Part shown: in pieces, positions 54,437-54,642 of the stretch | How the letters are laid out: the number at the start of each line of letters is the position of its first letter | Position numbering within the stretch: position 1 is the first letter of the stretch | Origin: Callorhinchus milii | Taxonomy: Eukaryota | NCBI RefSeq assembly: GCF_018977255.1 | Contig: NW_024704743.1 | Coordinates: 5,830,001-5,894,000 of the forward strand | Direction: 5' to 3' | DNA: 64,000 nt | Translations under genes and position numbers: made by a program | The notes under the pieces: model-generated | The model's input: only the letters and a program-made list of their open reading frames with translations | What the model was told of the DNA's origin: nothing | Databases searched by the model: none

Positions 54437-54642
54437 AGCTCAGAGGTTTTAGCTGGTTAAACTGCAGTAACCCAACACATACTTTGGGGGTACTCAAGCC
54501 TTGTCTCTTGGCAACCTATAGCGCCTTTCATGTCGGGAGGATGTCCCAAGGCGCTGGGAATAGGTTGCCAAGAGACAAGGCTTGAGTACCCCCAAAGTAT
54601 GTGTTGGGTTACTGCAGTTTAACCAGCTAAAACCTCTGAGCT
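54437..54642. repeat. Perfect 83-bp inverted repeat with 40-bp spacer
   Basis: 54437-54519 is the exact reverse complement of 54560-54642. Confidence 0.97.

What the first reader, a model, noticed from the sequence alone, without database searches (positions are those of the whole stretch)
54437..54642. Perfect 83-bp templated inverted duplication inside an L2 tail
Seen: 54437-54519 is an exact reverse complement of 54560-54642. The left arm interrupts a short antisense L2 tail (aacaacaagattacatttgtata|...|tagcgcctttcatgtcgggagg) that is contiguous in other copies (e.g. near 45215), and it was copied from old, diverged family X DNA 40 bp downstream. Junctions show tata/tagc microhomology. Inference: a very recent template-switch or polymerase-theta-type repair event that created a new 83-bp perfect dsRNA stem in the intron after exon 8 (ADAR/Dicer substrate, cruciform site); may be polymorphic.
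Basis: partly seen in the sequence, partly recalled or inferred. Interest (0 to 1): 0.7.

Follow-up and report, generated by a model that had tools for sequence, protein, structure and literature searches.

The report
Fold-back repair scar in intron
A backwards 83-base copy of nearby DNA sits in an intron of a shark-like fish's RIAM gene; three other animals appear to lack it, so it is probably a recent, harmless DNA-repair scar started by a small hairpin in a jumping-gene remnant.

Summary
The 83-bp perfect inverted repeat is real. The left arm plus 4 extra bases (87 nt) interrupts an L2-type tail, and the right arm is the native source. On the minus strand that stem, a 4-nt bulge and 3 more pairs form a fold-back primer. 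About 80 nt were copied and rejoined through 3-nt microhomology with a TA slip and no loss. In 3 of 3 genome-scale runs from distinct animals the arm lies inside one unbranched contig at flank-like depth, so the insert is absent there and is not a mobile element. It is most likely a private or low-frequency allele. An assembly artefact (about 17%) is not excluded, because reads of the assembled animal were not seen. The class is known: yeast fold-back insertions, snap-back SD-MMEJ and template-switch mutations. The scan noted similar scars elsewhere in this genome. No evidence of editing, small RNAs or function.

The parts
53494..53637 (+). Upstream coding exon of the host gene (start of PH domain, APBB1IP/RIAM-type)
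   Evidence: Pfam PH E 5.6e-4, below the curated cut-off; best PDB matches RIAM E 8e-22 versus RAPH1 1e-17; splice ends read
54346..54404 (+). Upstream part of the old repeat 'family X' copy that hosts the tail
   Evidence: Matches copies at 48085-48134, 13653-13681, 9061-9095, 25694-25734; 25/29 to 43/50 identity
54408..54432 (-). Terminal part of an L2-type 3' tail (TGTAA unit then TTG repeats on the minus strand)
   Evidence: Contiguous with the stem-loop in other window copies; same layout as the UnaL2 tail (PMC1636434)
54433..54436 (.). Four extra TA-repeat bases at the outer junction (slippage; could be placed at 54430-54437)
   Evidence: Net insert 87 nt versus 83-nt arm; other tail copies have a single TATA
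54437..54519 (+). Left arm: the new, inverted copy. Its first 3 nt (AGC) and last 3 nt (TAT) are microhomologies with the target
   Evidence: Exact reverse complement of 54560-54642; no contig joins it to its flanks in X1, X2, X4
54520..54555 (-). 36-nt stem-loop of the tail: 8-bp outer stem 54520-54527 with 54548-54555. This is the proposed fold-back primer
   Evidence: DNA fold -10.6 kcal/mol, z -2.8; stem pair probabilities 0.67-1.0; outer stem 89.6% paired over 18 window copies
54556..54559 (+). 4-nt bulge between the tail stem and the right arm; the tail's 5'-truncation point lies here
   Evidence: Fold; other tail copies match up to 54555-54557
54560..54642 (+). Right arm: native family X sequence, the template
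   Evidence: Same strand and order as the upstream family X part in 5 of 6 copies; the sixth has no clear upstream match. 62/73 identical to the copy at 13546-14021
57846..57960 (+). Downstream exon (end approximate); its acceptor is 3,203 nt from the hairpin
   Evidence: Translation and acceptor context

Best explanation
A real, recent, private or low-frequency allele made by one fold-back event. Shown: the anatomy, the direction of copying, and the pre-existing stem-loop at the turning point. Inferred: (1) A break or stalled fork left the minus strand single-stranded with its 3' end at about 54517 in present coordinates. (2) The tail's 8-bp stem folded, and the last 3 bases paired beyond a 4-nt bulge. 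(3) A polymerase copied about 80 nt of the strand's own sequence. (4) The hairpin unwound and the new 3' end re-annealed through 3 nt (AGC) at the original site. (5) Fill-in slipped by 4 nt in the TATA. No base was lost. The result is a 95-bp stem in pre-mRNA of the carrier allele, 800 nt from the donor and 3.2 kb from the acceptor. It is probably neutral and would at most be an incidental ADAR substrate.
For: Exact arms. Tail contiguous elsewhere. Right arm native in 5 of 6 family X copies. Only 0.56% of window positions have an 8-bp or longer stem ending within 0-4 nt (a post hoc figure). The stem is a family feature: 84.5% of cells paired versus 38-59% in slid controls. In X1, X2 and X4 the arm lies inside contigs of 1069, 1360 and 1183 nt that continue on both sides with letters that are not the left arm's neighbours, and left-flank contigs stop at 54433. 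A carrier should give an isolated 83-nt unitig, and a heterozygote a 63-nt junction unitig as well; neither is listed although pieces of 41-61 nt are. The three animals differ at 53847, 54136 and 54292, so they are distinct. Close experimental precedent: a 10-bp imperfect inverted microhomology with a 41-nt spacer gave fold-back insertions of 2 to about 150 bp (PMC11724301).
Against: Reads of the assembled animal were not seen, so the allele has no independent support. The 3 terminal pairs are weak (pair probability 0.05-0.07; +1.4 kcal/mol). Covariation in the stem is not above shuffles (41 of 500 for the score, 93 of 500 for pairing). PMC5453318 argued that primate events are inter-strand and saw no event with point 4 before point 1, which using both microhomologies implies here. 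Common SD-MMEJ products use 3-4-nt primers under 10 nt apart. Table 8 is cut (13,781 pieces not shown) and filtered; the 30-31 inner letters of the arm contigs were not printed. The stop at 54433 is also where a heterozygote would branch, though a branch caused by other tail copies explains it too.
Confidence: 0.62

Rival explanations
1. Assembly or library artefact: a fold-back chimeric read primed at the same stem-loop was spliced into the consensus at a highly repeated tail.
For: Absent from 3 of 3 other animals. Library chimeras arise at natural inverted repeats of 8 bp or more (PMC10908179). The site is a very abundant repeat (summed depth 227,794-357,569 versus 8-12 in the flanks). All 4 runs also differ from the window at 54210.
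Against: It needs two switches with a clean return and 4 added bases, whereas fold-back chimeras usually do not return (own knowledge). Both flanks otherwise match the other animals at 99% or more over long pieces. Comparable events were confirmed as real polymorphisms in humans (PMC5453318).
Confidence: 0.17
2. Inter-strand template switch (order 1-4-3-2), or trans-primed end joining. The plus-strand 3' end jumped about 120 nt ahead through AGC, copied 80 nt backwards, stalled at the tail hairpin and returned through TAT.
For: It gives the same product, and the two orders are mirror cases. Inter-strand switching was favoured in primates. It needs no weak bulged primer.
Against: The first switch would rest on 3 nt alone at 120 nt distance, and the 8-bp stem beside the other junction would serve only as a stall site.
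Confidence: 0.13
3. RNA-templated insertion: a staggered nick, then a LINE reverse transcriptase extended the plus-strand end on the host pre-mRNA and stopped at the hairpin; the 6 nt repeated at both junctions would be a target-site duplication.
For: The orientation fits a plus-strand transcript. Six target bases are repeated at both junctions. L2-type RT fragments are in the window. An unchecked note describes a SINE inserted with an inverted host copy (e1-7812105).
Against: The repeated 6 nt are fully explained as two 3-nt microhomologies. There is no element tail on the insert. Copying from exactly the adjacent 83 nt is expected for DNA fold-back.
Confidence: 0.06
4. The 206-bp palindrome is a MITE or other mobile fold-back element.
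For: Long terminal inverted repeats.
Against: No target duplication around 54437-54642. Depth over the arm's middle is 8.3-10.1, like the flanks. The spacer continues the left flank's tail and the right arm continues family X. No look-alike among the scan's noted windows.
Confidence: 0.02

Closest known systems
Local fold-back inverted insertions at double-strand breaks in yeast (PMC11724301; passages read)
   Same: Imperfect inverted microhomology of about 10 bp beside the break, spacer about 40 nt, templated inverted copy, capture by the other end with 0-4 nt microhomology; size within the 2 to about 150 bp range.
   Different: [quoted passage not shown] Here it is a natural vertebrate allele of 80 nt, the primer is a retroelement tail hairpin, and the enzymes are unknown.
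Snap-back synthesis-dependent MMEJ (PMC5728401; passages read)
   Same: Inverted primer repeats P1/P2, synthesis, unwinding, then annealing of a new microhomology to the other side; the insert becomes part of a longer inverted repeat.
   Different: Favoured primers are 3-4 nt and under 10 nt apart, and 8-9-bp repeats were seldom used whole. Here the distance is 40 nt and the synthesis is long.
Short template-switch mutations, four-point model, type 3-2-1-4 / 1-4-3-2 (PMC5453318, PMC10710096, bioRxiv 10.1101/2021.11.26.470150; passages read)
   Same: One event creates a perfect inverted repeat with an uninverted spacer; such events are often polymorphic, and those that seeded miRNAs are mostly intronic.
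   Different: Mean length in humans is 11.56 bp, with per-individual maxima of 97-180 bp, so 80-83 nt is in the long tail. Four extra bases are not explained by four points. The stem is much longer than the ~35 bp preferred for miRNA processing.
Stringent L2 3' tail stem-loop (eel UnaL2, PMC1636434; passages read)
   Same: About 60-bp tail, 36-nt two-part stem-loop, TGTAA unit at the end.
   Different: Different sequence and loop. Here the hairpin is proposed to act in DNA as a primer, not as an RT recognition signal.

Membership tests
Template-switch mutation (four-point model) | Inserted fragment is the reverse complement of sequence a short distance away | tested here: met
   83 of 83 at 40 nt
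Template-switch mutation (four-point model) | An ancestral allele without the fragment, colinear on both sides | tested here: met
   Paralogous tails and family X copies; contig pattern of X1, X2, X4. The allele is inferred; its junction letters were not listed
Template-switch mutation (four-point model) | All changes explained by four points, with point 4 not before point 1 | tested here: inconclusive
   Points 1 and 4 can be adjacent or overlap by up to 6 nt depending on microhomology placement; 4 extra bases remain
Template-switch mutation (four-point model) | Arises at a replication fork | not testable with these tools
   Sequence cannot separate fork from break repair
Fold-back insertion at a DSB / snap-back SD-MMEJ | Pre-existing inverted primer repeat at the turning point | tested here: met
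   8 bp + 4-nt bulge + 3 bp; present in other tail copies
Fold-back insertion at a DSB / snap-back SD-MMEJ | New microhomology joining the copied end to the other side | tested here: met
   AGC, 3 nt, with a 4-nt TA slip
Snap-back SD-MMEJ (common products) | Primers 3-4 nt, under 10 nt apart | tested here: not met
   40 nt apart; a tendency rather than a strict rule in PMC5728401
Pol theta-mediated end joining | Dependence on POLQ | not testable with these tools
   Needs genetics; the yeast look-alike uses Pol delta
MITE / fold-back transposon | Target-site duplication around the palindrome | tested here: not met
   The two flanks differ
MITE / fold-back transposon | Many near-identical copies | tested here: not met
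   Depth 8.3-10.1 at 54470-54499 at 95% likeness, like the flanks (the tool warns depth is no exact copy number)
miRNA precursor | About 35-bp stem with a loop of 10 nt or more; match to a known family | tested here: not met
   95-bp stem, 5-nt loop; 5 of 5 Rfam matches far below gathering scores
miRNA / endo-siRNA / ADAR substrate | Small-RNA reads or A-to-I editing over the arms | not testable with these tools
   No RNA holder on record; needs RNA from a carrier
L2 3' tail | About 60-nt tail with a two-part stem-loop and terminal repeat | tested here: met
   against PMC1636434
L2 3' tail | Attached to an L2-clade ORF2 in longer copies | tested here: inconclusive
   The tail at 11068-11129 lies next to an ORF fragment (11166-11588) with no Pfam match; RVT_1 matched 2 of 5 fragments. 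Clade assignment is recalled; no repeat library was available

The most novel reading that the evidence does not exclude
The 3' stem-loops of L2 and its SINE partners, which are extremely abundant in this genome, act as built-in fold-back primers. They would seed long perfect intronic hairpins at a measurably raised rate and in a fixed orientation, making the RT-recognition hairpin a genome-wide source of new dsRNA loci. This allele would be a fresh, still segregating example.
Probability: 0.12. Interest if true: 0.6.

Novelty: new member of a known kind. Interest (0 to 1): 0.27.

Why it matters
As a single locus it matters little: it is a clean natural example of a known mutation type at the long end of its size range, with both alleles available for study. 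It would matter more if retroelement tail hairpins prove to be a general primer for such events, since that would link a very abundant repeat to the birth of perfect dsRNA stems and give evidence on the intra- versus inter-strand question. In this window only 1 of 17 tail stem-loops carries such an extension, which neither supports nor excludes that.

Tried and rejected
No whole genome is held for this window, so no genome-wide count of the palindrome or of similar events could be made. No RNA holder is listed. Run X5 (RNA is a guess) has no depth at 54470-54499. Neither says anything about expression or editing. The joints in table 5 that skip 88-101 nt come from other tail copies (sides 20-26 nt, other letters between) and were not used as evidence for the empty allele. 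Rfam gave 5 sub-threshold miRNA matches, read as structure-driven. Covariation in the tail stem was not above shuffles. A crude scan of 54401-54560 found no acceptor-like site and one weak donor-like motif at 54464, so a splicing effect has no support. A MITE reading was rejected. Co-insertion of the tail and the inverted copy in one retrotransposition was rejected: the other animals carry the tail's terminal part (contigs run to 54433), and the copy sits inside the tail. Paper searches listed no paper whose title or abstract start describes LINE tail hairpins priming inverted duplications or this locus; the library lacks most subscription journals, and no supplements were read. Look-ups of earlier findings near this place and by sequence returned nothing.

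Full report
Observation. Positions 54437-54519 are the exact reverse complement of 54560-54642. The match cannot be extended at either end and the spacer is 40 nt. It is the longest exact inverted repeat in the window, and the only one above 19 nt among the 8 with spacers up to 120 nt. Chance is about 1e-41. As RNA the region folds at -192.6 kcal/mol, z -24.8, into a 95-bp stem with one 4-nt and one 7-nt bulge. A model without the insert gives -81.1 against -195.4 for equal lengths.

Setting. The host gene is on the plus strand and has RA and PH exons. The exon upstream matches RIAM/APBB1IP best (E 8e-22; RAPH1 1e-17). The intron runs 53638-57845, so the hairpin is 800 nt from the donor and 3,203 nt from the acceptor. 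I did not check the exon number. Earlier AI notes on this genome call it the elephant shark; I did not test that.

Three layers. The oldest is a diverged repeat (family X). In 5 of 6 other copies the part upstream of the site and the right arm match on the same strand and in the same order; the sixth has no clear upstream match. So the right arm is native and the left arm is the copy. Into this repeat a very short antisense tail was inserted (54408 to about 54557). Its two halves are contiguous in other copies. It has the layout of a stringent L2 tail: about 60 bp, a 36-nt two-part stem-loop and a TGTAA unit (PMC1636434, passages). L2 and SINEs share tails in the elephant shark (PMC5499810, passages). 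The clade label itself is partly recalled. Last came the 87-nt insert: the arm plus 4 TA-repeat bases, with no base lost and 3-nt microhomologies at both junctions.

The spacer is the tail's own stem-loop: 54520-54527 pairs with 54548-54555. The outer stem is paired in 89.6% of cells over 18 window copies, and the whole structure in 84.5% against 38-59% when slid. Covariation is not above shuffles (41 of 500), so the stem is pre-existing but compensatory change is not proven. On the minus strand a 3' end at 54517 would close this stem and pair 3 more bases beyond a 4-nt bulge, exactly where copying starts. Only 0.56% of window positions lie this close to the end of an 8-bp stem (post hoc). Against: the 3 terminal pairs form only 5-7% of the time, so a polymerase would have to trap them.

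Other animals. One search listed 24 runs, 4 of them holding half the words or more. I laid X1, X2, X4 (one study) and X5 on 53660-54559. X1, X2 and X4 differ at 53847, 54136 and 54292, so they are distinct animals. In all 3 the whole arm lies inside a single contig (1069, 1360, 1183 nt) with 956, 1247 and 1069 letters on its outer side and 30, 30 and 31 on its inner side, none of which continue the left arm's neighbours. Their left-flank contigs end at 54433, the last base that the two alleles share. A de Bruijn model predicts that any carrier yields an isolated 83-nt arm unitig, and that a heterozygote also yields 63-nt and 57-nt junction pieces; a non-carrier yields an unbroken path. The observed pattern is the non-carrier's. 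Low-depth 61-nt bubble paths are kept in these contig sets and pieces of 41-61 nt are listed, so a 63-nt junction piece should have shown. Limits: the table is cut and filtered, depth is about 8-12, contigs drop rare variants, hairpins may be under-sequenced, and the inner 30 letters were not printed. Depth in the arm's middle (8.3, 10.1, 8.3) is like the flanks, which rules against a multi-copy element. X5 has no depth there and tells nothing.

Reading. The best explanation (0.62) is a real private or rare allele made by intrastrand fold-back primed by the tail hairpin, at a break or a stalled fork. An inter-strand switch gives the same product (0.13; PMC5453318, passages, which favours inter-strand events in primates and saw none with point 4 before point 1). 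An artefact of the assembly remains (0.17): library chimeras start at such short inverted repeats (PMC10908179, passages), and the assembled animal's reads were not seen. RNA-templated insertion (0.06) and a MITE (0.02) are weaker.

Comparison. It works like the yeast fold-back insertions of PMC11724301 (passages: 10-bp imperfect inverted microhomology, 41-nt spacer, 2 to about 150 bp, most under 14 bp) and like snap-back SD-MMEJ (PMC5728401, passages). By outcome it is a 3-2-1-4 template-switch mutation. Human events average 11.56 bp with per-individual maxima of 97-180 bp (10.1101/2021.11.26.470150, passages). Such events create hairpins and some miRNAs (PMC10710096, passages), but this stem is far longer than the preferred 35 bp, and all 5 Rfam matches are sub-threshold. 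Enzyme-level membership (Pol theta, Pol delta) cannot be tested here. Other papers were seen as listings and abstract starts only; no supplements were read.

Verdict. The feature is real in the window and is a new member of a known kind. The scan has noted several similar local inverted copies in this genome (unchecked). Nothing shows function. The one fresh idea is that retroelement tail hairpins may be general primers for such events; 1 of 17 tail stem-loops in this window has an extension, and the searches named above listed no paper on it. Interest 0.27.

Noticed in passing
window 51214-51224: Another copy of the same tail has TTAGGGTTAGG (the only such telomere-like string in the window) replacing about 20 nt that begin at the same seam. 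It may be a second break-repair scar at this seam, or chance.
   Followed up: partly
window 54210: All 4 runs laid read C where the window has A: a private allele of the assembled animal or a consensus error, 227 nt from the insert.
   Followed up: no
window 53847: An 11-nt deletion is present in X1 and X2 but not in X4: an ordinary intronic polymorphism.
   Followed up: no
window 5452-5883, 6476-6717, 30741-31177: Three young, 97-98% identical SINE-like copies; 5678-5883 and 6481-6686 face each other 597 nt apart, a longer potential dsRNA than the finding itself if transcribed.
   Followed up: no
window 37901-38006 and 27496-27556: Two further perfect 19-bp inverted repeats with spacers of 68 and 23 nt; possible small template-switch scars.
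   Followed up: no
window 6437-6540: One tail copy is interrupted within its stem-loop by a second tail: tail-in-tail insertion.
   Followed up: no
window 3332-3620, 8980-9441, 13546-14021, 25480-25833, 45850-46133, 47900-48218: Family X is an old, roughly 300-bp dispersed repeat (about 75-90% identical in local matches) that I could not name; no repeat library was available, and Rfam gave no family match for the copy at the site.
   Followed up: partly
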